DNA of 64,000 nt from an uncultured Clostridia bacterium. Lineage in GTDB: Bacteria; Bacillota; Clostridia; Christensenellales; UBA1242. The stretch spans positions 39,864 through 103,863 of the forward strand of contig CANQWK010000002.1 of NCBI GenBank assembly GCA_947627545.1. Reading direction: 5' to 3'. The position numbers and the translations under genes were made by a program. The notes beneath the pieces are model-generated. The model saw only the letters and a program-made list of their open reading frames with translations, had not been told where the DNA came from and did no database searches. Numbering within the stretch: the stretch's first letter is position 1; every line of letters begins with the position of its first letter. Of this stretch, positions 26,217-63,275 are shown one piece after another.

Positions 26217-26220
26217 GAGG

Positions 26221-38956: not shown

Positions 38957-38959
38957 AAA

Positions 38960-39967: not shown

Positions 39968-39996
39968 TTGACTATAAATTACAAATTTATTATAAT
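39968..39996 (+). promoter_or_regulatory. Candidate promoter of the 7,361-aa giant gene
   Basis: TTGACT (39968-39973), a 17-nt spacer, then TATAAT (39991-39996). It lies ~48 nt upstream of the ATG. Confidence 0.6.
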
Positions 39997-40044
39997 AAAT
40001 TTATAATAATATTTGCTCAATAACGCAAATTAAAGTGAGGGGTT

Positions 40045-49000: not shown

Positions 49001-52000
49001 CGGAAAACACCTTGCTTTCTAACGGCAAACTTTCTAACTGCTATTATTTAGAAGAAACCGGCTCAATTTACACTTTGCCAAACAATTTAGAAAATTTACC
49101 TCAAGCGGTTGCTTTAAATGCAGAAAACTTCTCTAACCAAAACAATTTAAACAATTTTGTGTTCATAAAAAGCGATTACAACGAAAGCATAAGAAATCAG
49201 GGTGTGTGGACATATTATCCAGTTGGCAGCAGCCAAAAACATATTTTGCCAGAACTTACTTCGGCAAATATTGTTGCTCATTCTTACCGCATGTTAATGG
49301 GTGAGGAAAATAATGTTTATCAATATACCTATTCAACAAATTACAGCCTAGGCGGAGTGAACAACCCATACACAATTTCTAACGCAAATGAATTTAACCT
49401 TGTTTTTGCAGGCGAAATTAGTAACAACTCGCATAAAAAAGAAAATAGCATTGGCTATTTTAGAATGATTAACAACATCAATTTTGAAAATGTTGCAATT
49501 TTAACACGTTCAAACTTCATGCTTGGAGATGACAATAATTTAACAAGTTTCGAAGGCAATGGAATGACAATTTCAAACATCTATTTGGACGTGCTAAACC
49601 TTGTTAAAGACGAAGGCGGCAACGCGTTAGAAAAGGTCGGCTTGTTTGCCGAAATGAACAACACTTATTTCAAAAATGTAAATTTGGAATATATTTCACT
49701 AACAGATAGCGAACAAAACCCAACCGTGCCAATTAAATATTCGGGCGGTTTGGCAGGCGTTATTAAAAATTCTGCAATAATAAATGTAAAATTAGTTGGC
49801 AACAACACAACCATAGCAGGCAGCAATTTTGTTGGAGGTGTTGCAGGTTTAGTTTCTGGCACAAGCTTTATATATAATGTTTCTTCTAACCTTGGAGCAG
49901 TAAGCGATAGTTACCCAGATAACAGCCTTTATTACAACGAAGCCGACTACACTAAAATGCAAAATAATAACCTAATTAACAGGCAAATTAGTTATAACGA
50001 TTATACAAACAAACTATCTTATGCGGGCGGCATTGCCGGAGTGTTAGACTTGCAAACCAGAGAAAATTTAGAATATAACATTTCAAATGTAGATGTATAT
50101 GGCAACAACATGACAAACCGCACAAGCGGAAACATTGTAGGCAACTTTGCGGGCGGAATTGCAGGCTTTGCAAGTGCCGACACAGTGGCTTTAAAACTAA
50201 GGTTTTATGTTGGCACTTCTACTTCTATTGTGGGCTTGCACGCAGCGGGTGGCTTGTATGGCGTAGGCGTTGGGCGAGGCAAACAAAATGTTTCGCTAAC
50301 CGCTAGCCAAGTTACCGAAGAAGAAAATATAAGATATAGTTACGATACAAATTATGGCAATTACATAATAAATTTGGAAAAGAATGGCAGCGCAAGTTTA
50401 TCTAACACCGGCAACCAAACTTTATTAACCACAGAAGGTTTTGCTGGCGGTTTGGTGGGCATAAGCATAGCGCAAACCTTTGAAAGTTGCTATGCAAAAT
50501 CTAGCGTAAACACGGCAAGAGATTTTGGCGGAACAATAGGTTTAAGCGTTGGCTCAACTTTAAGCCATGTTTACGCCGTGCCTTATGTAAATTTAACAAA
50601 CAACTTAATTACAAATGTAGGCGGATTAATTGGCGTAGGCTACGGAATAAACAACAGCGCAACCTCTTATTCAACTTATACAAATTATGCTAAATATCTT
50701 TTAAACATTAACGATAAAAACACCGATGTAATTTACACTTTCTCTACATTATTAATAGATAATAATCAACTTTCTCAAATTTTGGCAGGCGAAATTGTAG
50801 AAAATGGGCAAACTGTTAAAATTATGGAAAATGGCAAGTTTGTTAAAAACATCAACTATTTAGCAGGGCAATATTTATTTAATAACAATAAGGATTGTTT
50901 TGTAAACAGCAACAACTCCCTAATAACAAACGGAAATTTAAGCGTTTATGTTGGCAAAGTGAACAATTACGCAAAAATTGAAGATACAAATGTAATAAAT
51001 CACACAGTTGGCGAAGCAATTAATTTAAGCGAATTGTTCAATTTAGAAGATGTTGACCAACCAGTGTTGTTTAAAAACATGTTTGGCGAATGGCCTACAA
51101 GATATTGGTTGCTAGATAATGAAAAATATTTCCCATTATTAATTAAAGAAGACGTTTTAAATTATATAATTATAGATGAATATACCGATTTCGACATTTT
51201 AGTTTCTAACCCAGATAAAAACTTTAAAATTGTTAAAGACATTAATATGGCTGAATGGAGCGGCCACGGAAACTGGATTTTCGACATTAATTTTACCGGA
51301 ACATTAATTGGCGAACCAAGCCAGGGCAACACCGCAATTCCTACCGTTTACAATTTGCACGTAGAAACCACGTTAAATGATAGAACTGCGGGCTTGTTTA
51401 TGCAAACCACCGGCGCAACAATTAAGGATATTAATTGGGTGTGGACATCGTGGTCAACCGGCAGCGATAATGGAGCAATAGACGATACAAACACGCCAAG
51501 TTTAACCACAATTGGCGGCGTTTCGTGTGAAGATTATTCTTCTAAATTTAACAACTTAAATGTTTATGTTGGAAGTTATACCGAACGCTCTTCTACACCA
51601 CAAAGCAGTTTAAACCCATATTTAATTAACAATTTAGACGAACATAAAATTACAGGTTTTGGCGGAATTGTTGGCATAGGCGAAAATTCTTCAATAGAAA
51701 ACTGCTCGTTTAACGGCAAAATTAAGGCTAACCTTAACAATGCGGGCGAAAATGTTTATTTTGGCGGCATTGCCGGCAGGGCAACCAAAAACAGCGCGGC
51801 AGTTGATAATTTTGGCGCGGGCTATCAAAAACGCTCAATTATTATGAACTCTTCGGTTGGCAATCACCCTAACTTTAACACTCAATTCGACATAACCTTA
51901 GGCAAAAATTCTAAATCGTTTGTTGGCGGCGCTATAGGTTATGTTTATAACTCGGCAATTAACAATGTTAATGTGGGCGAAATTAACAACTTTAAATTAA

Positions 52001-55000
52001 ATGTTAATTTATATAACTTTAATTCAATTATGGTTGCAGGTTTAATTGGCTATGAACAAAATAGTTCTATAACCGACTCAAACGCAATTGGCGAAATTAA
52101 TTTTTTAGAAACAATTAATAATGAAGAAGAAACTAACGGCAGTTTGTATGCGGCTGGTTTAGTTTCGCAGGCAGAACAATCGGTAAATTCAACCGATAGC
52201 GGATTTATAAATTCTTCTGCTAATGTAAACATTAACTTAACCAAACTTAACATTACAAATGTTTATGTTTCTGGCGGAATAGCATCGGCATCATCGGCTT
52301 CCACTTTGGAAATCCGTCAATGCGTGTTCGCAGGCAAAATTTATAGCGAGCAAGAAAATGCAAATTCAAGCGAAGGCGAAGAAAATTCAACCGCTTGGCT
52401 AAAAAATGTTTATGCTGCTGGCGTGGTTGCGGTTCAAAGCGGAATTTCAGTTTCAGGCAATTTATCGTTAAAAGAAACTGTTTCGGCAACCGACATAACT
52501 ATTGGCACGGCTTTATCTCAAGATACTGCAAACACTGGAACAACCACAATTTACATGGGCGGCTTTGTTGGTAAAGCAAATGGAAATGTTACTCTTCAAA
52601 ACAGCATAACAATTGGCAAATGCGTGCCTATAACTTCTAGGCTAAATGAAAATGACGGCGGTGGCGAAACCGAAGCATACAATATTTATATTGGCGGTTT
52701 TGTGGGCTATGCAGATAAAGTAAATTTTGCAAACTCAATTTCCACAACTAGCATTATTGCAGATAGCATTAATTCGTTGTCAATTAGAGATTTGCATATT
52801 CACGCACTTTTAGGCGACATTGCATCTAAAGATAGCAACGCTATCATTTGCAACAATGTGTTCTATTCAAGCGACATTGCTTTGTTCCCAGAAGATTTAT
52901 GCTTAACTGCAAGCAATCGTTCTGCCGTGTCGTTAACAAAAAATTCAGCATGGCAAAGTGAACTTATAACTAGCGGATATTGGACTAACACAACCACAAA
53001 TGCAATGCTAGGCTTACCAACATTATCTAATGGCAATATTATTGATAAATTAAGAAGTTACAACGTTTTAATTGGTCAGGGCAACAGCGGAGTGCAATAT
53101 AGTTTAGGCAGTGCGGCTAACCCTGAAATGAAAGATTGGTCAGACATAAAAACTAACGGCTCGGCTCTTGCTAACAAATTTTACATTTTGCAAGATGCAG
53201 GGCAAAGCGATGAACAAAATATAATTGACCTATCTGGCGTTGAATTAAACGGCGTGCTTATTGCAGTAGATAGCGTGTTCACTATAACCGAAAGCAACGC
53301 ATCTCAACAAAACGGCTATGCAGGAATATTTAGCCAAATTATGCCACACTCAGCAATTTCTAATTTGCATGTTAATGTTGTAGGCAATTTGCAAATTAAT
53401 GCAGATAAAGCAGCAGGTATAATTGCAGGTTACAATAGCGGCGTTATGTTCAACTGCTCAGTTCAAGGCAGCGGAATAAATGTTGGCGGCAGTAATTTAG
53501 GCTTAATTGCAGGCAGAAATGCAGGCTTGGTTTCTTACTGCTTCTCTTCGGCAGAAATTGTTTCAACTTCAACTAATGTTTCTGGCATTGTTTATTCAAA
53601 TGTAGATAAAATTTTATCTTGCTACTTTACAGGTTATATAGACAATTCTATCAATGCAGTGGGCATTGTTATGGAAAACAGCACAGGCTCAACAGATGTT
53701 TACGAACAGGGCAAAACACCTTATGTTTACAATTGCTATATGGCAGGCGTAATTGTAAATGTACAAAATAATAATGCGTTTGTGGGAGATACTAACGGCT
53801 TAATTTTAGACAACAAAGCAATAGGCAGCCGAAACTATGTAGATATAAATGTAAACGGAACAGAAATTGAACAAAAAGTTAAGGCAAGCAACAATGCAGG
53901 CAAAGATGTAATATGTTTAAGCACAATAGACACGCACATTTTAATGGCTAACACCGATAAATCAACTAATATTTTAGAAGGCAATTGGCTAACTGCAGCA
54001 GAAACAAGGCTATGGAATTCAACCGAACAATATTACATTAACATTCAGGCTACAAGTTATGGTTATAACTATTTGTATCCGGTTTATAACTTTAACAAAA
54101 TAACCGCTAATGGCAATAACACCGACTATATTAAATTGTTCCAATTATACACCGGCACAGGCGGAGATGGTTACGTGCTAGATTTAAACTTTAAAAGCAA
54201 CCACGATGTTGCACTAGCGGAAAACCAAAAATCGAATAAAGATTGCATTATAGAAGGTCCTGAAAGTGGTAGCGACTATTATTTGCACGCTTTAAAAATT
54301 CCGCACTTAGGCGTTTTAAAAGCCGTTCAAGGCATTGCAACCACTTTTGTTACAATAAGCAACAGTCCTGAATTATTCTTCCCAGATTTAAACTATGTGT
54401 TAATTTACGACATTAACGGAAAATTTAATTCAACCGATACCAACGCGGAAGATTACGAATGGACAGCGGTAGGCTCACAAAACAGCAACGGATTTATGGC
54501 AAACTTTGGCAAAAGCATTCAATTTAATGGCTTGTTTGTTTCTAATAAATACTATAATTATGGAAAAATAGAAGCAAATTCAAAAGATAATTTATGCACA
54601 ATTCAAAATTTGGCTAATCAGGGCTTGTTTGACAATATCAATAGAGCATACTTTGGCTATTTCATTCTTGGCAACTTTACAAACTTAAAAAATAGCGGTG
54701 CGTTAGGCGTGGCAGTTCATAGCCAAATAGAAGAACAAACCGTTATGGAAACTGTGGTGGAAAATGTATATTTCCAAGAGGCAGCAATTTACACCGCAGC
54801 CGACACTAGCGATAATTATATTTCGGCAATGTTCGGCGAAGTTGGCGGCACAGATAACGACGGCTCAACCGCTAACATAAAAATAAAATCTTGCGGCTTT
54901 ATAAAGAGCGATAATGCAAACCCTAATTATGTAACCCTAGCAAACGGCAATTATATGGGCCTAATTGTAGGCAAATTTACAAACGGCTATCTAGAGTTTA

Positions 55001-58000
55001 AAGAAGGAAATATCTTTGCCGTAAACTTTGCAGCAAAAGCAAATAAAAACAGTTATGCCGGCGGCGTGGTTGGTTTAATGGAAAATGGAACTATTGCCGG
55101 TGCGTACACAACAACGAATAACTCGCAAACTAAAGATGATAGTAACTCAAAAACTACAAACACAATAATAACAATTGCTAATTTAACAACAGGCAACCAG
55201 TTATATTTGGATTATTCAGGCGGAGTAAAACAAGGCGGAATTGTGGGCATTGCTGCTAAAAATTCTAATTTAGCGGCGAACAATACAAGTGAAATTTCTG
55301 GCATAGAAATTTTATTGCCTAATGAATATTTTGCCTTAGGTTTTGGCGGACTTATTTATGAAAATAATAACTCACACATTAAATTTGCAAATGTAAACAT
55401 CGGTTTAACCGACTCTACGCAACATTTAACCTTAACTTTAACCGGAAGCAATAATTTCTTTGGTTTTGTTGCTGCCGAAATGAATGCGGAAGATAAACAA
55501 TCTACAACCTTAGGCGTAGAAGTTGAAAATTTCAAATTTAATGGTTCAACCAACAGCGGAGATGCATCCAACGCAAGTAGCATCACGGTTGAAGTTAAAT
55601 TGCAAAACCGCGGAAAATTCACTTCTGACAAAATTGAAATAGATACTCAAGGCTTTGGCGGTTTGGTTGGTGCTTTGCGTGGCGGATTTATTAAATTTAG
55701 TACAGGCGATGCAGGGTTTAAGCCTAATTTAAAAGTTAGAAGTGCAAATGTAGGCGGAATTGTAGGTTGTTATTCAGGCGGATTGATAGGAATTGAAAAT
55801 TCCAATAACAATTACTATGTTACCTTATCTGGCTATTACAATGTTGGCGGTGCAATAGGTTATTTTGCCGCTGGCAGTTTAAATAATCTTTTGTTAGGCG
55901 ACAAAAATTCTAGGTGGAATTTCTTAAATAACAGCTCGGCATTTGCAGAAATTAATTCATTTGATAAAGCAGATTTATCTGCCGATAACTATTTTGCAAA
56001 TTGGGGCGGATTGATTGGCTATTTCAATAGTTTTGAAAATTTATCTATCGCTCCAGATGTATCAGATGGAGAAAAATCAGATGGAATTGTAAATAACAAC
56101 AATATATATATTGGCACAATGGAACACGATACCTCCAGCAACAAAACAGTAAGCGCTAACCCTGTGCTAGAAAATGTGGGCGGAGTTATTGGTAAAGTTT
56201 CTGCTGACGAACAAATTAACATTTCTTATTTAACTAACAACGGCGAAATAAACGAAGTTAAACAGCAAGGCAATAATGACATTGGCAATGTTTATCATAA
56301 ATTTGAGCAAGACGAAGAAATTTATTTGGTAAAATTTTCAGCAAAATCAAAAACCCAAAACGATAATTATATATTTGCCCTTTTAGCAACTAACGTAGGC
56401 GGCGTTGTGGGCAAACTAGAAAACGCAACAATAAGCAACTTGTCGGCAAAAGGCTCAACCGTATTTGGCTATAAAAATGTGGGTGGCCTAATTGGTTATG
56501 CTTATAATGTTTACACTAGCGAAAACATCTCAGTTGGCGCGAACGCAGTTGTGGTTGGCGTTATAAATGTTGGCGGCGCAATTGGAGAAGTTAGTTACGA
56601 TAAAAATGTCGAAATTAAATCAGGTAACGGAATTTGCAATGTTAATGTGGAAAAAGGCGCAAAAATTTACGGCAATTACAATGTAGGCGGCTTAGTTGGT
56701 TTCTTGGTTAATGGCACGATTGAAAACTGCACAGTTGGTGCAGAAGTTAAAACAAACGGCAACCAATCAGGCCAAGAAGTGCAAGCCGACACGCAAGAAC
56801 CTTCACAAGATGCAAATCAAAACGTTACAATTAAAGGCATTTATTTTGCAATTATAAATTTTGCAACCTCGGAATATTCTGGCTTTACCGAAGCTGACGG
56901 TACAAACATCAACAAGGAAGCATGTTTCTTCCCAACAAATGTTGGCGGCTTAATAGGCAGCACTCAGGCAGGCCAAAATGTCGAAACCAAGTTATTTATA
57001 ATTGCAAATAACAAATTAAACAACATAATTATCAGTTCAAGCCTAGAAGGTCAAGTTGCAATAGCAGAATCTAGCGAACAAACTTCAACAAGCGTGCCTG
57101 TTTATAACGAATCTACTGTAATTTCAACCATTAGCAACGCAGTGCTAAATGAAAATGTTACAAATAATTTATCAACCCTTGTTCAAAACAGAACGGACAA
57201 AGGCAAATTTAAATCAACAATAGTCAGCACATATTTGCAAGACTTCGAAACTGCAAAAACCGGCTTTGGCGGATTTATTGGCTCAACCGAAGCATCTGCC
57301 ATGTTAACAACCGCAAACCAAAACGTAATGTCTAATGTTAAAATTGACGCTTCACTAGGCATAAACGTTGGCTCATTCTACGGCTACTATAACGCTAACA
57401 AGTCCTATGATGTTAACAACTCTCTACGCACAATTATCACTCCAAAACTAAACGGTGACGTAAGTGTAACCGGTGCATATTTTGTGGGCGGAATTGCAGG
57501 CAGCATTAAAGCGGAAGATGAAACAATCAGCTTTAATAGCAACACTAAAGCAGGCGACATTTCAACCGACAATTCAACGCCTCCAACAATCTACATTCAA
57601 ACAGGCGAGTACAACATAGGCATGTATGTTGGCGGTTTGTTTGGCAACCTAAACGGCAAGGCTAACGGCTTAAAAATAGACAACAGCAACGGCAACTCTA
57701 TTCAATTTAGAATTAACAACATCAACTCGTTTTACACCGGCGGACTAATTGGCCGCTTGGAAGGCGTTTTAGGTGACAAAGACACATCAATAGATACCAA
57801 CATAGTAAACGCAATTTATAAGCAGAAAGTAGGCGACAATTCAGTTGAAACAAACAAGGGCGGTGCATTTGCTTTAATAGATTACACCGAAAGCAAAACA
57901 GATAGCGATGCAAACGGCAATGCAACAAAAGAGCCAATAGATATAAAATCATCACAAGCAACCGAAAACTTTGGCGGCTTGGTTGGCATGCTTAAAAAGC

Positions 58001-61000
58001 CTAAAATATCAAACATACCAGATATAGACCCATCAACTGCGTATGTAATAGGCTGGCATCCTTATGCCTTTACAGTAAACACAATAGAAAACGAAAATTA
58101 TCAAGACGGCAAAACCAACTATGATTACGAAGACGGCATAGAAGATAGCGTATATCTAACCGCACAAGCCTACTATGTAAACCAAGATAATTTTGAAATA
58201 TCCTATTCTCGCGGCGGCGCCGAAGTTGGCGATGATGTTGAATATTCATATACTTATGATGGTATTTATGATAATGTAAATAGCACTTCAATATGGTTTA
58301 ATCAAAACTCAAACAGCCCATTAAACGAAAACTGCTTTGGTTGGGCAAAAGATTACACAATGTTTAAAATAATGCAACGCAGAATACCACAAGGAACTAA
58401 TGGCAACACTGCCGAATGGGATTCAATTGCAACGGTTTACGATGCAAGCCGAATTTCAACAGTTTTAACATTAACAAACGCATTTACATGTGATGCTAAA
58501 GATTCTCGAAAAATTCCTTATTCATATAAAAAAGTAATAGACCCAGAAAATCCAGAGAATCCACCAAAATATGAAATGGCAACCTCTTTGTTTGAAAATT
58601 ACGATAAAAATGGAAACGGCAACATAGGTAATTTAGTTGAAATCTTAGACAAAAATGAGAAAGATGAAGATAAAAAAGAATTGGCAGATTTTGCAAATCA
58701 CATATTCTACACAATTTATGAAACAAGTGATTTTGAATCAGGCAGCGAATTGTCAGAGCCAATTTTATACTCCCGCATGGGCATTGCTCGTATGTTAAGA
58801 GATGAAAACAATAAACCAGCCGAAAACCCAAAAGGTAGAGCGGTATATTATTATAATGGCGACCTAAAAAATGATAATTATAATGACAACATAAAAAATG
58901 ATAGTAAATCCCTAACTTCTTGGGGTGGCGTTGTGTATTATGAAATTGACGACAATTTTGAAGATACTTCGTTAACAAGTTTTGATTTCAGCAGTAATTT
59001 ATTTGATATTTTTATAGATCAAAATTTTGAAGAATGGAATATAAAAGATTCTTCACTAAATAAACTATATTTCTTAAATTTTGCCAGTGAAGATAATGCA
59101 TTTGAATCCATTACTGAATATTGGCCTCCTCCTGGAGAAGATGAACCTTATCTAAAATATCCAGTAACGATTGATTTTGAAGATAGAATACCAATGGATA
59201 CTTTATGTAATATAAGAAATAGTAAGAATAAATATGATGTACAGGATAATACTGGTGCAGTTAATCAAACACTTGAATTTGAATTAAATACTGAATTTAT
59301 ATATTTAGTAAATTTAAATAGAGGCGATGAAGTTCTAAATAATAAAAAATGGTTTAAATTTGAAACAATTTTCCAAAATCCTACTTCTTCATCATTAACA
59401 AATGTTGATTCACCTGATTATAGTTCAAAAGACGGCAATATTTTAAATGTAAATGGGTTTGTTTCATCAGCTTTGTATAATGAATTGAACAAAGAATCGT
59501 CTAAAACCTTTCACATAGAAAACAATACAGGTCTTTTGACCGGAGTATTTATTGTTTTGGGTGGTTTAATAGGGTTGCTAGGGTTATTAGCAGGACCTTG
59601 GTGGATTGCTGTTATTGGTGTTGCAGCAGGAATTATTGCAGGCGGTATTACAGGACACTTTGTAGGAATAGGTGAATATAATAGACTTGTAAATAAGTAT
59701 AAAAATAAAGTAATTGCCAATGACATAATTATGGATAAAACATTTACAAGAAATGGTTTATCTTATGGCTTGTTTGGTGAAACCTTTAATAGAGAACTTT
59801 ATTATGAATATGACGAAGCAACCGAAAGTTATGTTTTAAAAGCACAACCAGAAACTTACAAAACAATTAATGGCGAACAATATGTTTATTACAGTTCAAC
59901 CCGACCTAGAACTTTCTATGATGAATATTATATTTTGCGAAACATAGATGAAAATAAAGAACCTATAAAAGTGCCTAAAAGTGAAGTTACACCAGATGGT
60001 AATGGAGTATATACTTATAAAGGCACAAAATATAGCGGAATAGCAGACAAAGATGGTTATGTAATGACCAAAAACTTTGAGTATAGAAATGGTGTTTATT
60101 ATATCAACCTATATGGCACAGCAATAGAAAATATTCCTTATCAATATCCGTTTAATAGCAATGGATATAACGAGTCGCATTATGTAGATGCTAATGGCAC
60201 AATTTATGCTCAGGGCAAAGCAACACTAAATGAAGATGGGTCTATTTCTTATACCTTACCAAAAGTCGAACAAAAAGTCGATGGAAGCATTGGTAGTAAA
60301 AATAAGTTATATCTTGAAGGAAATTTAATAAAAAATATTTCAAGTAATGAAAACTATAAAGGAATAACCGAAACTGAATTTATGCAAAAATTTAGCGGAA
60401 TTACATTTAGATATAAAAGAAGAATGTATTATAAAAAAATTGATGAAAGTGAAATTTCATCGCACAGCGACAATTTTATAGTTCGTGCAGGTCAAACCCC
60501 TGGGTTGGAAGAAAATCGTTATTATTTTGGTTATGGATATATGAAGAATGCTTATTATACAGCATTGTCAAATGTAAAAACCGATGATAAAAAGCAAGGG
60601 TATTTTGTGCTTGTTGGCTTTACTGATAATGTTGGAACATATAATGGAGAAAAGTGTTACGGAGAATTTGGTATAGATTATTTACAAAAACAAATAACAA
60701 TAACATCTCAACATTCAGACGGAACGAGCGATAAATATAACATTACAGCTTATTATCAATTTGTAGGCACATCTAACGAAACTATTCAAGATAGTTTAAC
60801 AGAATACAACGAAATAGATAAAGCAAATGTTACTTATCAGCCTATTATTAATGAAGAGCATTATTCATCATCACCTTTAACAATTGAATGCAAAGATATA
60901 AACAATAAGCATTTTAGCATAAAAGATATTTTATTAAGAAAAGCAAATTGTTTGCAAGTTGGCTTATATCCACATTCATTTGAAAACCCTTACACTAACA

Positions 61001-62130
61001 CCAATGAAGCAATACCGTATGAATATTTAACATCAGAAAGCAATAATTTAACACAAAAAGAAGCAAATGTTAATTTATCTTTAGAGGGAACACAAGATGA
61101 AAATTATTATATTGCAATATCTATTGAATCTGAAAATATACCTAATGAAGATTTAAATAATTATGTTATTAAGAATGATGTTGAATATTTCTATTATGAA
61201 GGTGATTATGTTGCTTATTCAACTAATTATTTAAGTGAAAGCTTTACTAATAAATATGATTATGAATATTCAGGCAATTTAAAATTAGATGACAACGGAA
61301 ATGGTGTGGTGTTTAAGCATTATGCAAATATTTCAAACATAAAATTATCAAAAGAAGGCGAAGATAGTAAACAACATCAATATAATGAAACTAACCATGG
61401 GCATGAAATTGATGACGGCTGGCAAGTAGAAAGTTTTATTTATAGCAGTCAATTTAGCGATGAAAGTGATTCAGTTACCAAAATCAAGCAACTTGATAAT
61501 AACAACGATTTCCTTAAAAAATATAAAGTTGATATTGTTGAGAATTACACCAAGGAAAAAATTGAATCTAAATTATCAATAGATTTAGCAACTTTGGCTT
61601 TAAAATTCGCAGATTATAAATCATGGTATGTTTATGATGAAAGTATTGACCCTGAAAAAATTAATGTTGATTTATTTAAAGTAAGCAATATGTTTTATGT
61701 GAAATATGGAGGAAGAGCAACTACAGATTACTACGAACTATATATGAGAGATGACGATGTTTCAGTTAATAGTGGAATTCTTTCAAAATCATGGGCAGAT
61801 ACAGGTGGCGGAGATGACGATTATAATAGAAACAAATTTTTAATGAATAAAGAATATCAAATTTACACCCGTTACAAATTTGAAGATAATATACCTGTAA
61901 ATGCTCTTCAGGGATATAGTGGTAAAATCTTTCAAAATGGGTGTTGGAGTGTTATAGACAATGCAACACCTCAATATTATTTGTACTTAAAAGGGTCAAG
62001 TTATCCAAATAAAGAGAAAACAAATACTTATTTTGTAGAAAGTTTACTTGTAACTTTGGGCGGAAATGTTGATGTTACTTGCGATGTTAATAATATAACA
62101 ACTCACTCTGGTTCATTTACTGCTAAATAA
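40045..62130 (+). CDS. Giant lipoprotein (7,361 aa): about six cap+GLUG repeat arrays, double-TM hairpin, 818-aa Tyr/Asn-rich tail
   Basis: A 22,086-nt uninterrupted ORF. The lipobox is L-S-S-C24 (MKKKVLGILSCVFMLFVCLTLSSC). I count at least 50 GG(L/I/V/F)(V/I/A)G...I.N units by reading the translation. It has a GTGAGGGG SD, a consensus promoter and a strong terminator. Confidence 0.9.
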   Translation: MKKKVLGILSCVFMLFVCLTLSSCKGKYDKMQFQVLYAFSEDAETWLDGSNGIDVYYGQEEGLLPQQENGWAKLYIKIQISKVKSKYIDDIFVSSSTSNGMYLSNSKVKSGEVFSVEVKDKVSFVLSALETVSQKGTSVNVNASFPLEKIETNFNVNPAVVIGNSINLNEFNALTFYPINKTNQTSVNYEIKRVGYFINGEENNQFVGTANISGVSINNNILSLDSNFNFNAERYAIEIEAKSTYNANISSIFYVYAVTNDNNIPTVKYYNDNGLNNAEIDGNIMLYSGTKYSTASLIVGLENVNEVYKTGKYLLHNGVANIETQIFANKNSEPVNVQAQTQQEDLKFGLHFGLGSANNVYTITATSLSYMQDVVVDFKLAFSLLNFGSFNFNSNAKSITIQKGSLATGIKIGDNFYKNGENAEFEIYATNGKTNAVTLNLAAVSASNPLQKIYISKSNNLTVTPLVDESNPFVYTNGYINVNFTNSDNTGLGSIQLSTYANPETFQGLQLEAEPIVVNLQFKKIISANGFAVFKDNQFQTKIENRELLVGVGEENFFYLRVYYSNGEFNNESAKSVIINAGNEGVLLTNNGLTSNELTLNNVSEFGRGHEDNLGSEFYGDDYVQYRIAFANVDGSAKATNISITSGAGTLNMTSFNAVPVTISNGQFDVATSIATTDAVRMNNSSVANKHFYFATVFNKTINFDVFSNENNLGKDVNKLTIINQDNSTFENSNFTNNAVELSTISNYSFQVKTTTAGQTRVVKLAISYYYYDQENGCVLLRNDYDNRTPSTNDDAEILTLEFAVFVPITGFQITPNLSTLNYINKNIATNGDFSKYTQAEISYKAISNSITNSPTKVIYFTFGSGFVEENPNKIDLLFSQNIDHNSLEIFREVNGVRTAINVSSLTLDELEGKIVVLLRNESNISSLKLTFSPKIFNEIKTDSQSATINFQTCAAAQGVTISGENIINRVENSNYVTISFIDSMPNGSVSKQFFANAYYRDEDRNKLQLGLLDYSIENVNDPSIASEGISLTFENGVATISATNNGKNGGLYRISIFAPDSYVDNGTDTPYYSAINYVYLEISDGGKVSPYVLSSEADFAKIRNNNSLDKTTYYVLGADFTVNLNNLYSSIPESERFYEFFGNLSGNYVVYDANNVEYNFRYTITVILNSKVYDNLNNNYIGLFPKINNEAVVANLNLDVEYQLNDVTTSVGNVYIGGLAGVNDGTITNVDVNLKYNTNINLSNLGEVNLDLINFGGLVGQNSVNGKIDMQNSAVNCSRLIIYTKDKANLTHNIGLIAGENNSIIQGEYAGKPSLNNVAYTVVANLSIVASGRNAKINAGAVAGASGVTDRAGNVSLIQNVIVGGRISLDNAANNETYLGGIIGYSNNSTGVNKGIYTCAVLGLDLTNNSANGYVAGIAAALDNSTIDDVRIMSTYAKFNGFNSTGKISGANVVAGVVAKLSSSRITNASVESFIDAIDNETFYMLESATNNVYGLAYDDNTNSTISSCFINANIKNVNNDNAIYLTSNSNSEEYSYFLGKINGILDNLNIVKANANCSYSVVLDGDNMFYFNHISSNLEKCNEENLQDWLTFVKSAEFSNLTWEENNATNFKLDENKNIIKIGDVNYYFPYLVNNFGEPQMIERPSSIKAAFNSEYALYTNSHIVQSGNLVLDMEQIKNNLADIIFVNYFEFEDKSKNSESYNTHNLVNTNKENPNGLIDLEVLPNGTQGGVSFEILNILGFNNARIINSAEGHKIVFSAASGNLPIIVRAYSIFNPEAQCFVAMFSQNGISKLNISSTSTRVNEVVNQEVDYELTTYTNSAPLILNFEAENMFKGQKFKTIFDNLEDYSNYISIDWSKQDIGYEGEILTLNETTSKTSIQLEVGNDFDGYYFEEIITFSLKIDLQQYILGNGYEFNLLEGVEDAKYELAQVKLRVMVFKSTEKIEPNIEAKTLDSETPIALNVTLKTSYVEADEDNTLKNGGSKALSLLNILVDGQSINLNEQNKDSLILTFNKNKQNSQALQNLLQASGCDYVTDLFNLTNVTYKFYYENETINGESVSTLKGYVYTIEIELKQGYEFRHLIENVGLTLTINSTTNPNPSLDKLADLQPEIELTLTPTDFKSARIYNYAATDMQAAGTTNIVTSNSLDSNYISPAPNSYGSILAIHLQPNYSIIRNATLSSNSIKVPSLSNPVYLILTQVVPVENGLFQSIISKGGSTLTLNTSPEYVDNGIIYVHAEVSESFSGYSAPLTLTLTAEVGSVEQGTNRTITIEKQLLTTYLPGVYLSYNQDAKVPSENAYFIEEDSYYNTVGVTLYGYELQSSPNVYFVWNLSSFDNIPEEKRPFNYLTEGNYVDYSTIVDKNGKQYKIGDYVDHSDLNNFTNLHANRDGSFSFNFNVQMIDNEDPIPASFKLIAEFKFNENGDGDSKELVFYPVNYVFASQNAAYLSNMSNGNVYANVSALTPLEFVFKTTNADKDKSIDIYLDILKSFGYDGLDENKTAVAISKLKHAFSFTGTMAGYFDDENITAFKVLSQLEINKNEKNEKDSILIVLQGVAENQFSVTFRLNYAYIKENGMYKIAYGTENNFTGTNSLEFRFNLVIRVQTNLDAPIPLFHDNFVSKINEFAGSDFILMEDVELEDFTPISTNIASLDGNNKVIKIKSFAVSPDRTEYGLFANIGTFESGTETKTTILKNIIVDYSECVDLRLLRNTATEFVFGGLVATNNGGLIYNCDVMNINANNRTKDLNIYVSSAENANADNSILTLTFGGLVGVNSGNITNSRVGRLSYTKINCTIEGSTITESSDTDNANPINFILGKNLASSEAQSFKGIAGGFVGVNSGIIASSYFANAGLVNYSAVADHSNKTAGFVAENSGEIRFSYVKALENSINSGDATSAKIRCTGAAIEGKGNSNIAGFVYTNSSIIENCFANTELKTTSSYSAGFVYENLNGAEINMCYAACSTSQNNIVENALNEQPFVGVNAENTLLSNGKLSNCYYLEETGSIYTLPNNLENLPQAVALNAENFSNQNNLNNFVFIKSDYNESIRNQGVWTYYPVGSSQKHILPELTSANIVAHSYRMLMGEENNVYQYTYSTNYSLGGVNNPYTISNANEFNLVFAGEISNNSHKKENSIGYFRMINNINFENVAILTRSNFMLGDDNNLTSFEGNGMTISNIYLDVLNLVKDEGGNALEKVGLFAEMNNTYFKNVNLEYISLTDSEQNPTVPIKYSGGLAGVIKNSAIINVKLVGNNTTIAGSNFVGGVAGLVSGTSFIYNVSSNLGAVSDSYPDNSLYYNEADYTKMQNNNLINRQISYNDYTNKLSYAGGIAGVLDLQTRENLEYNISNVDVYGNNMTNRTSGNIVGNFAGGIAGFASADTVALKLRFYVGTSTSIVGLHAAGGLYGVGVGRGKQNVSLTASQVTEEENIRYSYDTNYGNYIINLEKNGSASLSNTGNQTLLTTEGFAGGLVGISIAQTFESCYAKSSVNTARDFGGTIGLSVGSTLSHVYAVPYVNLTNNLITNVGGLIGVGYGINNSATSYSTYTNYAKYLLNINDKNTDVIYTFSTLLIDNNQLSQILAGEIVENGQTVKIMENGKFVKNINYLAGQYLFNNNKDCFVNSNNSLITNGNLSVYVGKVNNYAKIEDTNVINHTVGEAINLSELFNLEDVDQPVLFKNMFGEWPTRYWLLDNEKYFPLLIKEDVLNYIIIDEYTDFDILVSNPDKNFKIVKDINMAEWSGHGNWIFDINFTGTLIGEPSQGNTAIPTVYNLHVETTLNDRTAGLFMQTTGATIKDINWVWTSWSTGSDNGAIDDTNTPSLTTIGGVSCEDYSSKFNNLNVYVGSYTERSSTPQSSLNPYLINNLDEHKITGFGGIVGIGENSSIENCSFNGKIKANLNNAGENVYFGGIAGRATKNSAAVDNFGAGYQKRSIIMNSSVGNHPNFNTQFDITLGKNSKSFVGGAIGYVYNSAINNVNVGEINNFKLNVNLYNFNSIMVAGLIGYEQNSSITDSNAIGEINFLETINNEEETNGSLYAAGLVSQAEQSVNSTDSGFINSSANVNINLTKLNITNVYVSGGIASASSASTLEIRQCVFAGKIYSEQENANSSEGEENSTAWLKNVYAAGVVAVQSGISVSGNLSLKETVSATDITIGTALSQDTANTGTTTIYMGGFVGKANGNVTLQNSITIGKCVPITSRLNENDGGGETEAYNIYIGGFVGYADKVNFANSISTTSIIADSINSLSIRDLHIHALLGDIASKDSNAIICNNVFYSSDIALFPEDLCLTASNRSAVSLTKNSAWQSELITSGYWTNTTTNAMLGLPTLSNGNIIDKLRSYNVLIGQGNSGVQYSLGSAANPEMKDWSDIKTNGSALANKFYILQDAGQSDEQNIIDLSGVELNGVLIAVDSVFTITESNASQQNGYAGIFSQIMPHSAISNLHVNVVGNLQINADKAAGIIAGYNSGVMFNCSVQGSGINVGGSNLGLIAGRNAGLVSYCFSSAEIVSTSTNVSGIVYSNVDKILSCYFTGYIDNSINAVGIVMENSTGSTDVYEQGKTPYVYNCYMAGVIVNVQNNNAFVGDTNGLILDNKAIGSRNYVDINVNGTEIEQKVKASNNAGKDVICLSTIDTHILMANTDKSTNILEGNWLTAAETRLWNSTEQYYINIQATSYGYNYLYPVYNFNKITANGNNTDYIKLFQLYTGTGGDGYVLDLNFKSNHDVALAENQKSNKDCIIEGPESGSDYYLHALKIPHLGVLKAVQGIATTFVTISNSPELFFPDLNYVLIYDINGKFNSTDTNAEDYEWTAVGSQNSNGFMANFGKSIQFNGLFVSNKYYNYGKIEANSKDNLCTIQNLANQGLFDNINRAYFGYFILGNFTNLKNSGALGVAVHSQIEEQTVMETVVENVYFQEAAIYTAADTSDNYISAMFGEVGGTDNDGSTANIKIKSCGFIKSDNANPNYVTLANGNYMGLIVGKFTNGYLEFKEGNIFAVNFAAKANKNSYAGGVVGLMENGTIAGAYTTTNNSQTKDDSNSKTTNTIITIANLTTGNQLYLDYSGGVKQGGIVGIAAKNSNLAANNTSEISGIEILLPNEYFALGFGGLIYENNNSHIKFANVNIGLTDSTQHLTLTLTGSNNFFGFVAAEMNAEDKQSTTLGVEVENFKFNGSTNSGDASNASSITVEVKLQNRGKFTSDKIEIDTQGFGGLVGALRGGFIKFSTGDAGFKPNLKVRSANVGGIVGCYSGGLIGIENSNNNYYVTLSGYYNVGGAIGYFAAGSLNNLLLGDKNSRWNFLNNSSAFAEINSFDKADLSADNYFANWGGLIGYFNSFENLSIAPDVSDGEKSDGIVNNNNIYIGTMEHDTSSNKTVSANPVLENVGGVIGKVSADEQINISYLTNNGEINEVKQQGNNDIGNVYHKFEQDEEIYLVKFSAKSKTQNDNYIFALLATNVGGVVGKLENATISNLSAKGSTVFGYKNVGGLIGYAYNVYTSENISVGANAVVVGVINVGGAIGEVSYDKNVEIKSGNGICNVNVEKGAKIYGNYNVGGLVGFLVNGTIENCTVGAEVKTNGNQSGQEVQADTQEPSQDANQNVTIKGIYFAIINFATSEYSGFTEADGTNINKEACFFPTNVGGLIGSTQAGQNVETKLFIIANNKLNNIIISSSLEGQVAIAESSEQTSTSVPVYNESTVISTISNAVLNENVTNNLSTLVQNRTDKGKFKSTIVSTYLQDFETAKTGFGGFIGSTEASAMLTTANQNVMSNVKIDASLGINVGSFYGYYNANKSYDVNNSLRTIITPKLNGDVSVTGAYFVGGIAGSIKAEDETISFNSNTKAGDISTDNSTPPTIYIQTGEYNIGMYVGGLFGNLNGKANGLKIDNSNGNSIQFRINNINSFYTGGLIGRLEGVLGDKDTSIDTNIVNAIYKQKVGDNSVETNKGGAFALIDYTESKTDSDANGNATKEPIDIKSSQATENFGGLVGMLKKPKISNIPDIDPSTAYVIGWHPYAFTVNTIENENYQDGKTNYDYEDGIEDSVYLTAQAYYVNQDNFEISYSRGGAEVGDDVEYSYTYDGIYDNVNSTSIWFNQNSNSPLNENCFGWAKDYTMFKIMQRRIPQGTNGNTAEWDSIATVYDASRISTVLTLTNAFTCDAKDSRKIPYSYKKVIDPENPENPPKYEMATSLFENYDKNGNGNIGNLVEILDKNEKDEDKKELADFANHIFYTIYETSDFESGSELSEPILYSRMGIARMLRDENNKPAENPKGRAVYYYNGDLKNDNYNDNIKNDSKSLTSWGGVVYYEIDDNFEDTSLTSFDFSSNLFDIFIDQNFEEWNIKDSSLNKLYFLNFASEDNAFESITEYWPPPGEDEPYLKYPVTIDFEDRIPMDTLCNIRNSKNKYDVQDNTGAVNQTLEFELNTEFIYLVNLNRGDEVLNNKKWFKFETIFQNPTSSSLTNVDSPDYSSKDGNILNVNGFVSSALYNELNKESSKTFHIENNTGLLTGVFIVLGGLIGLLGLLAGPWWIAVIGVAAGIIAGGITGHFVGIGEYNRLVNKYKNKVIANDIIMDKTFTRNGLSYGLFGETFNRELYYEYDEATESYVLKAQPETYKTINGEQYVYYSSTRPRTFYDEYYILRNIDENKEPIKVPKSEVTPDGNGVYTYKGTKYSGIADKDGYVMTKNFEYRNGVYYINLYGTAIENIPYQYPFNSNGYNESHYVDANGTIYAQGKATLNEDGSISYTLPKVEQKVDGSIGSKNKLYLEGNLIKNISSNENYKGITETEFMQKFSGITFRYKRRMYYKKIDESEISSHSDNFIVRAGQTPGLEENRYYFGYGYMKNAYYTALSNVKTDDKKQGYFVLVGFTDNVGTYNGEKCYGEFGIDYLQKQITITSQHSDGTSDKYNITAYYQFVGTSNETIQDSLTEYNEIDKANVTYQPIINEEHYSSSPLTIECKDINNKHFSIKDILLRKANCLQVGLYPHSFENPYTNTNEAIPYEYLTSESNNLTQKEANVNLSLEGTQDENYYIAISIESENIPNEDLNNYVIKNDVEYFYYEGDYVAYSTNYLSESFTNKYDYEYSGNLKLDDNGNGVVFKHYANISNIKLSKEGEDSKQHQYNETNHGHEIDDGWQVESFIYSSQFSDESDSVTKIKQLDNNNDFLKKYKVDIVENYTKEKIESKLSIDLATLALKFADYKSWYVYDESIDPEKINVDLFKVSNMFYVKYGGRATTDYYELYMRDDDVSVNSGILSKSWADTGGGDDDYNRNKFLMNKEYQIYTRYKFEDNIPVNALQGYSGKIFQNGCWSVIDNATPQYYLYLKGSSYPNKEKTNTYFVESLLVTLGGNVDVTCDVNNITTHSGSFTAK
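59533..59673 (+). other. Predicted double transmembrane hairpin inside the giant ORF (aa 6497-6517 and 6521-6543)
   Basis: The sequence is LLTGVFIVLGGLIGLLGLLAG-PWW-IAVIGVAAGIIAGGITGHFVGIG. It forms two ~21-23-residue hydrophobic, Gly-rich (GxxxG-type) segments joined by a Pro-Trp-Trp turn. Confidence 0.7.
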
Positions 62131-62134
62131 CAAT

Positions 62135-62165
62135 AAAAAATCTCGTAAAATTACGAGATTTTTTT
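62135..62165. terminator. Bidirectional intrinsic terminator shared by the giant ORF and the convergent lipoprotein gene
   Basis: tctcgta (62141-62147) pairs with tacgaga (62152-62158). An A run lies on the left and a T run on the right. Confidence 0.85.
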
Positions 62166-62174
62166 AAGTTTAAT

Positions 62175-63275
62175 TTATTTTATAAAATTGTTTTGTTTTA
62201 CTATATAATTTGCAAAATATGTAATAGGAGTAGGAGAAGAAAGTTCTTCAATGTTAAAATATCCATGTTTTAAATTAAATATTCCATTTCTATAACTGCT
62301 ACTAGAATTTAATTCATCAATATTAATTGTTATTGGCGATATCTCTCCATAGGATACGGGTCCAGGGTTCGAAGTCCCCGCAATTAAATCTAAATCTAAA
62401 CAGAAAGTATATTCTCCAGTTTTAGAGATGTCTTTAATAATAAAATTATTTATCTTTTGAGAGTTAAAATTTTGTATTACATTGTTATCAATTCTATTAA
62501 ATTGTTGTAATAATTCTTCATAAGCATTTGCGTTAATGCAAAATTCATTAACAAGTTCGGCTTCCCGTTGATTATCTAGTTCTTGAATAAAGAAATTTGC
62601 TTGAATATATTTTTCTTCTGTAAGCATTGAAAAATCTTCTAACTCTTTATCTGTAATTTCATGTTTTATTAAATATATTTTATAATATTGAGTTTTTTTA
62701 TCTTCGCCAAACATCATGCGTATATTTGTAAATAATTCGTTTTTATTTTCATTATTAACATAATTAAAACAATATGTATAAATTTCATTATTTTTAATTG
62801 CTTCAATATCTTCGCCTTGGCTTTCTAAAAAGGTGTATGGAATATTTTCAATTAAATTTGCACCTGCATCGGCTAAGCCAGGAAGTTTCAGTTGGTTTGA
62901 AAAGTGCTTGTCGGCTAAGTCATTGTAATAGTCACTTTTTAAAACGTCTTGAAGGAGTTGGCTGTATTGGCTGTAATCCGGCTCGGGTGGGGTGGTTGGT
63001 TGATTTGTGTTGCCACCTTGCTCATTTTGGTTGCCCTGATTGTTGCCACTCTGTTCATTGCCTTGGTTGTTGCCATTGTTTAAATCAGTATTGTTTTCAG
63101 TTTGGTCAACAGGAGGGTCTGGCACAATATAAATATGGCAACCGGCTGCCGACAACGCTATGCCTGATGCCAACGCACAAGTTGCTAAGCTTTTAACAAT
63201 TTTGCTATGACCCACAGCATGCCTAAAATTTGTCCATTTTTCTTTTAATTTTTGAAGTAAATTTTCCTTTTCCAT
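62175..63275 (-). CDS. Lipoprotein with Asn/Gln/Gly-rich linker, unknown function (366 aa)
   Basis: AGGAGG SD. The signal/anchor ends in LSAAGC. The linker is NNTDLNNGNNQGNEQSGNNQGNQNEQGGNTNQPTTPPEPD. The gene is convergent with the giant ORF and shares its bidirectional terminator. Confidence 0.75.
   Translation of the reverse strand: MEKENLLQKLKEKWTNFRHAVGHSKIVKSLATCALASGIALSAAGCHIYIVPDPPVDQTENNTDLNNGNNQGNEQSGNNQGNQNEQGGNTNQPTTPPEPDYSQYSQLLQDVLKSDYYNDLADKHFSNQLKLPGLADAGANLIENIPYTFLESQGEDIEAIKNNEIYTYCFNYVNNENKNELFTNIRMMFGEDKKTQYYKIYLIKHEITDKELEDFSMLTEEKYIQANFFIQELDNQREAELVNEFCINANAYEELLQQFNRIDNNVIQNFNSQKINNFIIKDISKTGEYTFCLDLDLIAGTSNPGPVSYGEISPITINIDELNSSSSYRNGIFNLKHGYFNIEELSSPTPITYFANYIVKQNNFIK

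What the first reader, a model, noticed from the sequence alone, without database searches (positions are those of the whole stretch)
58980..62800. Abrupt composition and synonymous-codon shift across the 3' 3 kb of the giant ORF and the 3' half of the convergent lipoprotein gene
Spot counts by hand on 60-nt lines show the shift. Upstream in the ORF, 57601-57660 has 29 G+C and 50161-50220 has 27. From ~58,980 onward the counts fall: 58981-59040 has 12, 59041-59100 has 14, 60301-60360 has 9 and 61621-61680 has 14. The shift is not only due to amino-acid content. Gly codons in 57601-57680 are 6 GGC out of 7. In the TM hairpin (59530-59670) only 1 of 12 Gly codons is GGC, and the rest are GGT, GGA or GGG. 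Housekeeping genes in the window also favour GGC. The AT-rich tract continues through the shared terminator into the 3' part of the convergent gene 62175..63275, whose 5' part (from ~62,800) returns to a higher GC. Inference: the last ~1,050 codons of the giant gene, the hairpin plus the tail, may have a different evolutionary origin from the GLUG body. The C-terminal half of the neighbouring lipoprotein may share that origin. One possibility is an exchangeable C-terminal cassette.
Basis: partly seen in the sequence, partly recalled or inferred. Interest (0 to 1): 0.6.

Follow-up and report, generated by a model that had tools for sequence, protein, structure and literature searches.

The report
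AT-rich conserved tail of giant lipoprotein
The last 3.6 kb of a 22-kb surface-protein gene and the far half of the facing lipoprotein gene lack the genome's usual preference for C-ending codons, but about 20 related gut-bacterial species show the same thing at the same place, so it is a long-standing property of a conserved module and not a recent foreign insertion here.

Summary
After correcting for amino-acid content, GC3 in the tail is 0.17 against 0.31 expected (z about -10). The 3' 230 codons of the convergent lipoprotein gene show the same drop (z -5). The loss is almost entirely in C-ending codons, which fall to the intergenic level.

The tail consists of a junction, a TM hairpin and a Tyr-rich ectodomain. 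It is collinear in all 23 related loci I recovered. These come from genome-reduced gut Christensenellales, including Candidatus Onthoplasma, a genus placed in family UBA1242. Each locus with sequence beyond the giant gene also has the convergent lipoprotein.

The same GC3 step occurs at the same homologous position across the family: tail below body in 18 of 18 loci, lipoprotein 3' part below 5' part in 19 of 20. The window's tail is sister to its nearest relative's tail, as is its body (bootstrap 100 for both). At 25-55% protein identity, synonymous sites are at equilibrium, so a recent import cannot explain the shift.

Module exchange does occur elsewhere in the family. One clear mosaic (L023) has its breakpoint in the conserved hinge.

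The cause of the persistent codon neutrality is unresolved. Residue conservation and next-base context were both excluded.

The parts
40045..62130 (+). Giant ORF of 7361 aa. It has an N-terminal lipoprotein signal (LSSC, Cys24, 40105-40122), a GLUG-motif body and a C-terminal module.
   Evidence: (PF07581 scores 26 bits against a 20.5 cut-off in 52045-58521)
57622..58521 (+). Conserved hinge, aa 5860-6159. It runs from the last GLUG units (MYVGGLFG) through AYVIGWHPYAFTVNTIEN and GWAKDYTMFK to EWDSIATVYDAS. It is the most conserved stretch in the family, still has normal or high GC3, and is the site of the recombination breakpoint seen in relatives.
   Evidence: (alignment A4)
58522..59532 (+). 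Variable junction, aa 6160-6496, including the conserved FYTIYE motif at 58705-58722. The family-wide GC3 step begins here. In the window, GC3 reaches about 0.1 from about 58,950.
59533..59673 (+). Hydrophobic hairpin of two predicted TM helices joined by a short PWW turn. Other subclades have a Lys-rich loop between the helices.
   Evidence: topology is inferred from the sequence
59674..62127 (+). Tyr-rich C-terminal domain of 818 aa (10.7% Tyr). Family-invariant motifs include YYxGYGYMKNAYYTA (60520-60564), NKYLxNxxxQIYTRYKY (61831-61881) and TTYxVESxxVTLGG (62026-62064). It matches no Pfam, PHROG, PDB or phage entry.
62135..62164 (.). Palindromic hairpin flanked by A and T runs. It serves as a bidirectional terminator shared by the two convergent genes.
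62175..62870 (-). 3' 231 codons of the convergent lipoprotein gene, covering most of its globular domain. GC3 is 0.14-0.15. This is the right-hand part of the AT-rich block.
62871..63275 (-). 5' 135 codons of the lipoprotein gene: cytoplasmic N-terminus, signal/lipobox (LSAAGC, invariant Cys46), an N/Q/G/P-rich linker and the conserved YSQLLQDVLxSDYY motif. Codon usage is normal.
58522..62870 (.). The whole codon-neutral, C3-depleted block of about 4.35 kb. It spans the 3' ends of two convergent genes.

Best explanation
The block is the conserved C-terminal module of a giant GLUG-motif surface lipoprotein, together with the globular domain of its syntenic, convergent partner lipoprotein. The module consists of a variable junction, a TM hairpin and a Tyr-rich ectodomain. 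The host is an uncultured, genome-reduced gut Christensenellales bacterium related to Candidatus Onthoplasma (GTDB family UBA1242).

The block is native and vertically inherited in this lineage. Its synonymous sites sit at the genome's mutational, intergenic-like composition. It lacks the enrichment of C-ending codons (GGC, AAC, GAC, TAC, AGC, CGC) that housekeeping genes, the GLUG body and the lipoprotein's 5' part all carry.

This discontinuity is an equilibrium property maintained across the whole family. It is not the unameliorated signature of a recent import.

Shown here: the shift, its restriction to C3, collinearity, the family-wide recurrence at one homologous boundary, phylogenetic congruence for the window lineage, and independence from residue conservation and next-base context.

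Inferred: the proximate cause. My best guess is that selection for C-ending codons is ineffective or absent on this module. The module is a diversifying surface unit that is occasionally swapped by recombination, bounded by two conserved 'handles': the hinge, and the YSxILxxVL motif of the lipoprotein. Linked positive selection and turnover would prevent weak codon selection from acting. The step itself is firm; this last step is not.
For: - Shift after amino-acid control: z -10.7 and -9.1 for the tail, -5.0 for the lipoprotein 3' part. C3 falls from 0.25 to 0.10 with G3 unchanged, and tail C3 matches intergenic C. The block holds 8 of the 10 lowest of 120 windows.
- Architecture in the 20 GTDB species-level loci: one continuous giant ORF including the tail in all 20, and the convergent 286-411 aa open frame (the lipoprotein gene) in 19. 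The 20th locus (L013) ends at the giant ORF.
- Tail GC3 is below body GC3 in 18 of 18 loci (mean -0.10, p 8e-6). The lipoprotein 3' part is below its 5' part in 19 of 20 (mean -0.14, p 4e-6).
- Body GC3 matches neighbouring genes. The tail is lower than its neighbours on average (mean -0.084, p 3e-5, 16 loci) and close to intergenic GC.
- The family-average GC3 ratio stays at 0.9-1.2 up to window aa 6159, then falls to 0.6-0.76 to the end.
- Window plus L007 is a clade with bootstrap 100 in both the body and tail trees. Five shallow clades are congruent.
- C-ending use is the same at conserved and variable columns: 0.43-0.46 in the body and 0.24-0.25 in the tail. It is halved in every next-base context.
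- Diversification and turnover: L023 is a mosaic. Conspecific L001 and L014 differ by 2.2% in the body, 9.6% at the junction and 4.0% in the tail, with seven in-frame indels in the tail.
- Taxon context.
Against: - The cause is not demonstrated. Body and tail lie in one ORF and so share one expression level, which makes a simple expression-based relaxation of codon selection hard to argue.
- Tail conservation per column (34-47%) is only slightly below that of the GLUG body (43-47%), so 'fast-evolving' is a weak contrast.
- Hill-Robertson effects confined to 4 kb require frequent recombination. I could not measure this, because the only same-species contigs (L004, L028, L029) are identical to the window.
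- The window's tail GC3 (0.18) lies about 0.06 below the family regression. A lineage-specific extra contribution is therefore not excluded.
- The loci are phylogenetically related, so the Wilcoxon p-values overstate independence.
Confidence: 0.6

Rival explanations
1. Recent import. In the window's own lineage, homologous recombination replaced the tail and the 3' half of the lipoprotein gene with an allele from a more AT-rich relative. The low GC3 is the donor's unameliorated signature.
For: - The block is contiguous, crosses a gene boundary and ends inside both ORFs next to conserved motifs, like a recombination tract.
- Tail codon usage resembles that of AT-richer relatives such as L001/L014 and L006.
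- Module replacement is documented in L023.
- Window-L007 tail identity (30.6%) is low for their body identity when compared with other sister pairs.
- The window's tail GC3 is below the family regression.
Against: - The window's tail is still sister to L007's tail with bootstrap 100.
- The same step exists in L007/L002, L008, L011, L015, L019, L022 and L024 at the same position. That would need many independent imports, always from AT-richer donors.
- In the most AT-rich genomes the tail is not GC-richer than the body (L016, L013, L006, L009), as random exchange would predict.
- Sister pairs with congruent tails (L011/L015, L019/L022) keep the step despite saturated synonymous divergence.
Confidence: 0.12
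2. Adaptive slow or AT-rich coding. A/T-ending codons are selected in this module. Possible reasons are to slow translation while the hairpin inserts and the 800-aa post-hairpin domain is exported and folded, or to keep this part of the mRNA unstructured.
For: - The step is regional, independent of residue conservation and conserved across the family.
- The tail follows a TM hairpin and must cross the membrane late (inferred topology).
Against: - The step begins 200-340 codons upstream of the hairpin.
- It also covers the lipoprotein's globular domain, which has no hairpin.
- Tail C3 equals the intergenic level instead of going below it. That looks like absence of selection, not selection for A/T.
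Confidence: 0.13
3. Regional mutational bias. The zone where the two convergent transcription units meet experiences more AT-biased mutation, for example from transcription collisions or transcription-associated deamination.
For: - The block is centred on the convergent junction and its shared terminator.
- The depletion is of C on the coding strand of both genes, although they lie on opposite DNA strands.
Against: - The block is very asymmetric about the terminator: 3.6 kb on one side and 0.7 kb on the other.
- A higher mutation rate alone does not move a mutation-selection equilibrium.
- Coding-strand C loss in the 3' parts only is not what known transcription-associated asymmetries predict (established knowledge).
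Confidence: 0.08
4. By-product of amino-acid composition, sequence context or chance.
For: The tail is richer in Tyr, Lys, Glu and Asp and poorer in Gly and Ala than the body. GC2 also falls, from 0.37 to 0.31.
Against: - The shift persists after amino-acid control (z -9 to -11) and within every codon family.
- It persists within every next-base context.
- It is an extreme outlier among 120 windows.
Confidence: 0.02

Closest known systems
Polymorphic toxin loci (CdiA-CT/CdiI, Rhs-CT/RhsI, WapA)
   Same: A giant exported protein with a conserved body. A conserved motif marks the start of a more variable C-terminal part. A small partner gene lies next to it. The C-terminal part and the partner co-vary, can be swapped by recombination at the conserved motif, and often have lower GC than the body (established knowledge of these systems). 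Co-switching was seen here in L023.
   Different: Here all tails are homologous, forming one family with invariant motifs across 23 loci, not unrelated toxin domains. No toxin or immunity family is detected. The partner gene is convergent and encodes an exported lipoprotein, not a same-strand cytoplasmic immunity protein. A TM hairpin precedes the tail.
GLUG-motif (PF07581) large surface proteins of Bacillota
   Same: The body carries GLUG motifs above the Pfam cut-off and has a secretion/lipoprotein signal.
   Different: The tail and the partner lipoprotein have no Pfam, NCBIfam, PHROG or PDB match. The hairpin-plus-Tyr-rich-tail architecture is restricted to about 20 protein clusters in a 15-billion-protein collection.
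Giant genes of host-dependent or predatory bacteria (West-Roberts et al. 2023, bioRxiv 10.1101/2023.11.21.568195)
   Same: A gene of more than 20 kb encoding a surface protein, in an organism predicted to depend on other cells. UBA1242 genomes are below 1 Mb and were predicted to be those of an obligate symbiont or parasite (PMC12306168).
   Different: Different phylum and different domains. That paper surfaced in a literature search and I did not read it. No intragenic codon-usage discontinuity is known to me from that work (my knowledge, not tested).
Compositionally atypical horizontally acquired regions and amelioration (Lawrence and Ochman framework)
   Same: A sharp GC3 and codon-usage discontinuity relative to flanking DNA.
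   Different: The region is present and collinear in every relative. It is phylogenetically congruent for the window lineage. The discontinuity persists over divergences at which amelioration should be complete.

Membership tests
Recently acquired foreign DNA (genomic island or recombinant tract) | Atypical composition relative to the host genome | tested here: met
   z -10.7 for the tail. The block holds 8 of the 10 lowest of 120 windows. Only the 64-kb window plus 7 kb was available as the 'genome'.
Recently acquired foreign DNA (genomic island or recombinant tract) | Patchy presence, or replacement by unrelated sequence, in relatives | tested here: not met
   The tail is present and collinear in all 23 related loci. 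The partner lipoprotein is present in every locus with sequence beyond the giant gene.
Recently acquired foreign DNA (genomic island or recombinant tract) | Phylogeny of the region conflicts with that of flanking DNA in this lineage | tested here: not met
   Window plus L007 are sisters with bootstrap 100 in both the body and tail NJ trees. Conflict exists for L023 versus L025 and possibly L013 versus L016, but not for the window.
Polymorphic toxin / immunity cassette (CdiA-CT, Rhs-CT type) | C-terminal domains of different alleles are unrelated in sequence beyond a conserved demarcation motif | tested here: not met
   All tails align along their full length and share invariant motifs.
Polymorphic toxin / immunity cassette (CdiA-CT, Rhs-CT type) | Immunity gene immediately downstream on the same strand | tested here: not met
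   The neighbouring gene is convergent and encodes a signal-peptide lipoprotein in all 19 species-level loci that extend past the giant gene.
Polymorphic toxin / immunity cassette (CdiA-CT, Rhs-CT type) | Recognisable toxin domain in the tail | tested here: not met
   No Pfam, NCBIfam, PHROG or PDB match. The AlphaFold model of the tail was unusable, with pLDDT 37.
GLUG-motif protein (PF07581) | GLUG motif above the Pfam gathering score | tested here: met
   26.0 bits against a 20.5 cut-off in 52045-58521, and 18.7 bits in 46045-52044. None in the tail.
Bacterial lipoprotein | N-terminal signal with a lipobox Cys | tested here: met
   The giant has LSSC with Cys24. The partner has LSAAGC, and Cys46 is invariant in 19 homologues. 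This is a pattern and conservation test only; no dedicated predictor was run.
Conserved C-terminal module family of UBA1242 giant proteins (defined here) | Order hinge, FYTIYE motif, TM hairpin, YYxGYGYMKNAYYTA, NKYLxNxxxQIYTRYKY, TTYxVESxxVTLGG at the C-terminus of a giant ORF, followed by the convergent lipoprotein | tested here: met

The most novel reading that the evidence does not exclude
The junction-hairpin-tail module and the partner lipoprotein's globular domain form a co-evolving, recombinationally exchangeable specificity cassette of a giant adhesin. It would be used by obligately partner-dependent, genome-reduced gut bacteria. The cassette is bounded by two conserved recombination handles. 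Its codon-neutral, C3-depleted composition would be a persistent hallmark of continual diversification, giving a compositional marker for finding such cassettes in other uncultured lineages.
Probability: 0.25. Interest if true: 0.7.

Novelty: new variant of a known kind. Interest (0 to 1): 0.45.

Why it matters
A sharp intragenic codon-usage break is usually read as evidence of horizontal transfer. Here the break is conserved at one homologous position in about 20 species that share only 25-55% protein identity. It therefore cannot be a transfer scar and must be maintained by something acting on a 4-kb block that crosses two convergent genes. That is a caution for composition-based detection of horizontal transfer.

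It also points to a functional unit that no database describes: the tail plus the partner lipoprotein domain. This unit sits in a gene that would take up about 2.5% of a genome below 1 Mb, the size reported for family UBA1242, which is predicted to live off other cells. If the unit is the partner-recognition end of the protein, it is the place to look for host specificity in this family.

Tried and rejected
- Tail as a separate gene. In L001 and L003 the tail is called as its own ORF. The conspecific species representatives L014 and L019 have one continuous ORF. The breaks are a 2-nt gap in a locally scrambled patch and a 38-nt deletion at 2x coverage, at different positions and not in simple repeats. 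I therefore rejected both a separate gene and a programmed frameshift.
- Accuracy selection at conserved residues. C-ending use does not depend on column conservation in either region.
- Next-base context. Rejected.
- GC-biased gene conversion. Normal genes are elevated in C3 only, not G3.
- Phage origin. There is no tblastn hit in 50,697 phage records and no PHROG match.
- Structure of the tail. The AlphaFold model had pLDDT 37 and was not searched.
- Closer relatives of the window organism. Three other contigs from the same study are identical to the window or differ by a single base in the overlap. Two metagenome scans gave nothing closer.
- Rfam and tRNA scans of the window found nothing.
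Full report
**What is in the window**

The finding lies at the 3' end of a 22,086-nt ORF (40045-62130, + strand, 7361 aa) and in the convergent 366-aa ORF 62175-63275.

The giant protein starts with a lipoprotein signal (LSSC, Cys24). Its body carries GLUG motifs (PF07581, 26 bits against a 20.5 cut-off in 52045-58521). It ends with a two-helix hydrophobic hairpin (59533-59673) and an 818-aa Tyr-rich domain.

The convergent gene encodes a lipoprotein: lipobox LSAAGC, an N/Q/G/P-rich linker and then a globular domain. A palindromic bidirectional terminator (62135-62164) separates the two genes.

Other genes in the window are pheST, secE-nusG-rplK-rplA, dut, dnaD/dnaI-like genes, cysS and ABC exporters. 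This indicates a low-GC Bacillota chromosome using genetic code 11.

**Checking the observation**

The Gly-codon counts are essentially exact: 6 of 7 GGC in the first stretch, and 1 of 13 (not 12) in the hairpin.
- GC3 in 200-codon windows is 0.28-0.42 over 49-58 kb and 0.14-0.21 from 58.6 kb to the stop.
- I took the tail's amino acids and applied the codon usage of 21 other window genes. The expected GC3 is 0.313 and the observed value is 0.172 (z -10.7). Against the body's own usage the z is -9.1.
- Every C-ending codon family drops: GGC 0.64 to 0.23, AAC 0.45 to 0.18, GAC 0.34 to 0.17, TAC 0.25 to 0.11 and CGC 0.21 to 0.
- The change is in C3 (0.25 to 0.10), not G3 (0.08 to 0.07). Tail C3 equals intergenic C, which is 0.06-0.12.
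- The lipoprotein gene has normal usage in its first 135-150 codons (GC3 0.38, z +1.4). GC3 is 0.144 afterwards (z -5.0), with a change-point at about 62,870.
- Among 120 non-overlapping 150-codon windows of all ORFs, the eight inside the block hold the seven lowest ranks and eight of the lowest ten.
- The left edge is stepped. The decline begins at about 58.2-58.5 kb and GC3 reaches about 0.1 at about 58,950.

**Relatives**

A word-indexed search with the tail found one homologue, P0001 at 26% identity. An exhaustive profile search of 1.84 billion representatives found 21, nearly all at the C-terminus of very large proteins.

A scan of GTDB species representatives with a tail alignment returned 20 loci. 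They come from uncultured gut MAGs of rabbit, chicken and other animals, including Candidatus Onthoplasma faecipullorum and Candidatus Onthoplasma faecigallinarum. NCBI places Onthoplasma in Christensenellales. A 2025 paper places it in GTDB family UBA1242, with genomes below 1 Mb and a predicted obligate symbiont or parasite lifestyle (PMC12306168).

In all 20 species-level loci the tail is part of one continuous giant ORF. In 19 of them a convergent open frame of 286-411 aa follows; the 20th, L013, ends at the giant ORF. The FYTIYE motif, the hairpin and the tail motifs align throughout.

Two contigs in which the tail is called as a separate gene (L001, L003) are conspecific with representatives that have an intact ORF (L014, L019). 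They differ by a 2-nt gap and a 38-nt deletion respectively. The tail is therefore collinear across the family.

**The shift is family-wide**

- Tail GC3 is below that of the last 1000 body codons in 18 of 18 loci (mean -0.10, Wilcoxon p 8e-6). Amino-acid-adjusted z values reach -11.8.
- The lipoprotein's 3' part is below its 5' part in 19 of 20 loci (mean -0.14, p 4e-6). Tail and lipoprotein 3' GC3 correlate (rho 0.81).
- Body GC3 tracks neighbouring genes (difference -0.02, not significant; rho 0.73). The tail is lower than its neighbours on average (mean -0.084, p 3e-5, 16 loci) and close to intergenic GC.
- Where the whole genome is already at the AT floor (L016, L013, L006, L009) there is no step, and the tail is not GC-richer than the body.
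- I projected GC3 onto the alignment for the 15 loci with body GC3 of at least 0.28. The ratio to the body mean is 0.9-1.2 up to window aa 6159 and 0.6-0.76 from there to the end. The boundary is the downstream end of the most conserved stretch of the protein, the hinge at 57622-58521.

**Origin of the window's tail**

NJ trees of 17 taxa place the window with L007 at bootstrap 100 for both the body (739 columns) and the tail (657 columns). Five shallow clades are congruent between the two trees.

These lineages share only 25-55% protein identity, so synonymous sites are saturated and any donor signature would have ameliorated. Sister pairs with congruent tails still show large steps: L011 and L015 go from 0.45 and 0.37 to 0.28 and 0.23, and L019 and L022 from 0.44 to 0.26 and 0.23.

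A recent import therefore does not explain the window's shift. The discontinuity is an equilibrium that is being maintained.

**The cassette idea is not empty**

L023 (Candidatus Onthoplasma faecigallinarum) is 58% identical to L025 over 900 body residues, against 30-34% to other loci. Beyond window aa 6000-6100 L025 becomes its most distant comparator: junction 24% (36 bits) and tail 28% (185 bits). L024 and L014 become the closest there, at 36-39% (149-367 bits). The lipoprotein domain follows the same pattern.

In the trees, L023 plus L025 has bootstrap 100 in the body and 0 in the tail. A split separating them has bootstrap 99 in the tail.

A weaker switch at the same place is seen for L013 versus L016.

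Between conspecific L001 and L014, divergence is 2.2% in the body, 9.6% at the junction and 4.0% in the tail, with seven in-frame indels.

The C-terminal module plus the lipoprotein domain is thus a unit that diversifies and is occasionally exchanged, with crossovers in the conserved hinge. These events are old and their composition is already host-like.

**Mechanism of the codon neutrality**

I could exclude four explanations:
- amino-acid composition;
- next-base context;
- selection tied to residue conservation, since C-ending use is 0.43-0.46 in all conservation classes of the body and 0.24-0.25 in all classes of the tail;
- GC-biased gene conversion, since only C3 is elevated in normal genes.

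What remains is a regional absence of the selection that enriches C-ending codons elsewhere. The most likely reason, in my view, is that weak codon selection is ineffective on a surface module under recurrent diversification and turnover. I hold this with modest confidence.

Two rivals remain. One is selection for slow or AT-rich coding of a late-exported domain. The other is a local mutational bias at the convergent junction. Neither fits the geometry well. The step starts 200-340 codons before the hairpin, it also covers a lipoprotein domain with no hairpin, and the block is very asymmetric about the terminator.

**Function**

The tail and the lipoprotein match nothing in Pfam, NCBIfam, PHROGs, the PDB or the phage collection. 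The AlphaFold model of the tail failed, with pLDDT 37. The lipoprotein domain folds confidently (pLDDT 84-97) into an alpha+beta structure. It has no significant PDB neighbour; the best hit is E 0.017, tandem NTF2-like TcpC.

From the N-terminal lipid anchor and the hairpin, both body and tail are inferred to be extracellular. A role in contact with partner cells is plausible for a UBA1242 organism but is inference only.

**Verdict**

The 'different origin' reading is not supported for this genome, although the family does have a semi-autonomous, occasionally exchanged C-terminal module linked to the lipoprotein.

The real finding is a conserved intragenic codon-usage discontinuity marking that module. 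It is moderately interesting, mainly as a counter-example to reading composition breaks as transfer scars, and as a pointer to an undescribed functional unit.

Noticed in passing
window 8254-9388 and beyond 64000 (L004 9409-10328): The ribosomal-protein genes rplK-rplA and rplJ-rplL are usually adjacent. Here about 55 kb separates them, and that stretch holds the two giant surface-protein genes, ABC exporters, dnaD/dnaI-like genes and cysS. In the relatives with enough downstream sequence and called genes (L002, L005), rplJ follows the partner lipoprotein, with or without a PRTase-like gene between.
   Followed up: partly
window 29299-38184 (+): A second giant ORF of 2961 aa, with GC3 0.25 and C3 0.15, intermediate between housekeeping genes and the tail. 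Not analysed further.
   Followed up: no
window 25490-27351 (-): Three small, very AT-rich ORFs of 217, 154 and 163 aa (GC 22-25%, GC3 about 0.2). They have no convincing family match and are the only other ORFs in the window approaching the tail's composition.
   Followed up: partly
window 38816-40044: A 1.2-kb intergenic region upstream of the giant gene with only 18% GC (A 0.48, T 0.34). Presumably the promoter or regulatory region.
   Followed up: no
L001 5870-5890; L003 240-290: Two MAG contigs from different species carry ORF-breaking indels within about 100 codons of the body/tail junction. Their conspecific representatives (L014, L019) are intact. These could be assembly errors at low coverage, or real splits that would express body and tail separately.
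   Followed up: partly
L023 (= L005) about 5600-9978: In Candidatus Onthoplasma faecigallinarum the giant gene is a mosaic. Its body is sister to L025 (58% identity). Its junction, tail and lipoprotein domain are closest to the L024/L014 clade, and the breakpoint lies in the conserved hinge.
   Followed up: yes
window 58723-58761: Right after the FYTIYE motif the window protein has a 7-residue insertion (within TSDFESGSELSEP) that is absent from all 20 other aligned sequences.
   Followed up: no
window 62178-62975 (-): The partner lipoprotein's globular domain gives a confident AlphaFold model (pLDDT 84-97) with no significant match among solved structures. It may be an undescribed fold family or a distant tandem NTF2-like domain.
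   Followed up: partly
L004 1-106: The first 106 nt of the ENA contig that otherwise equals the window (55526 onward) do not match the window. This is probably a chimeric contig end.
   Followed up: yes
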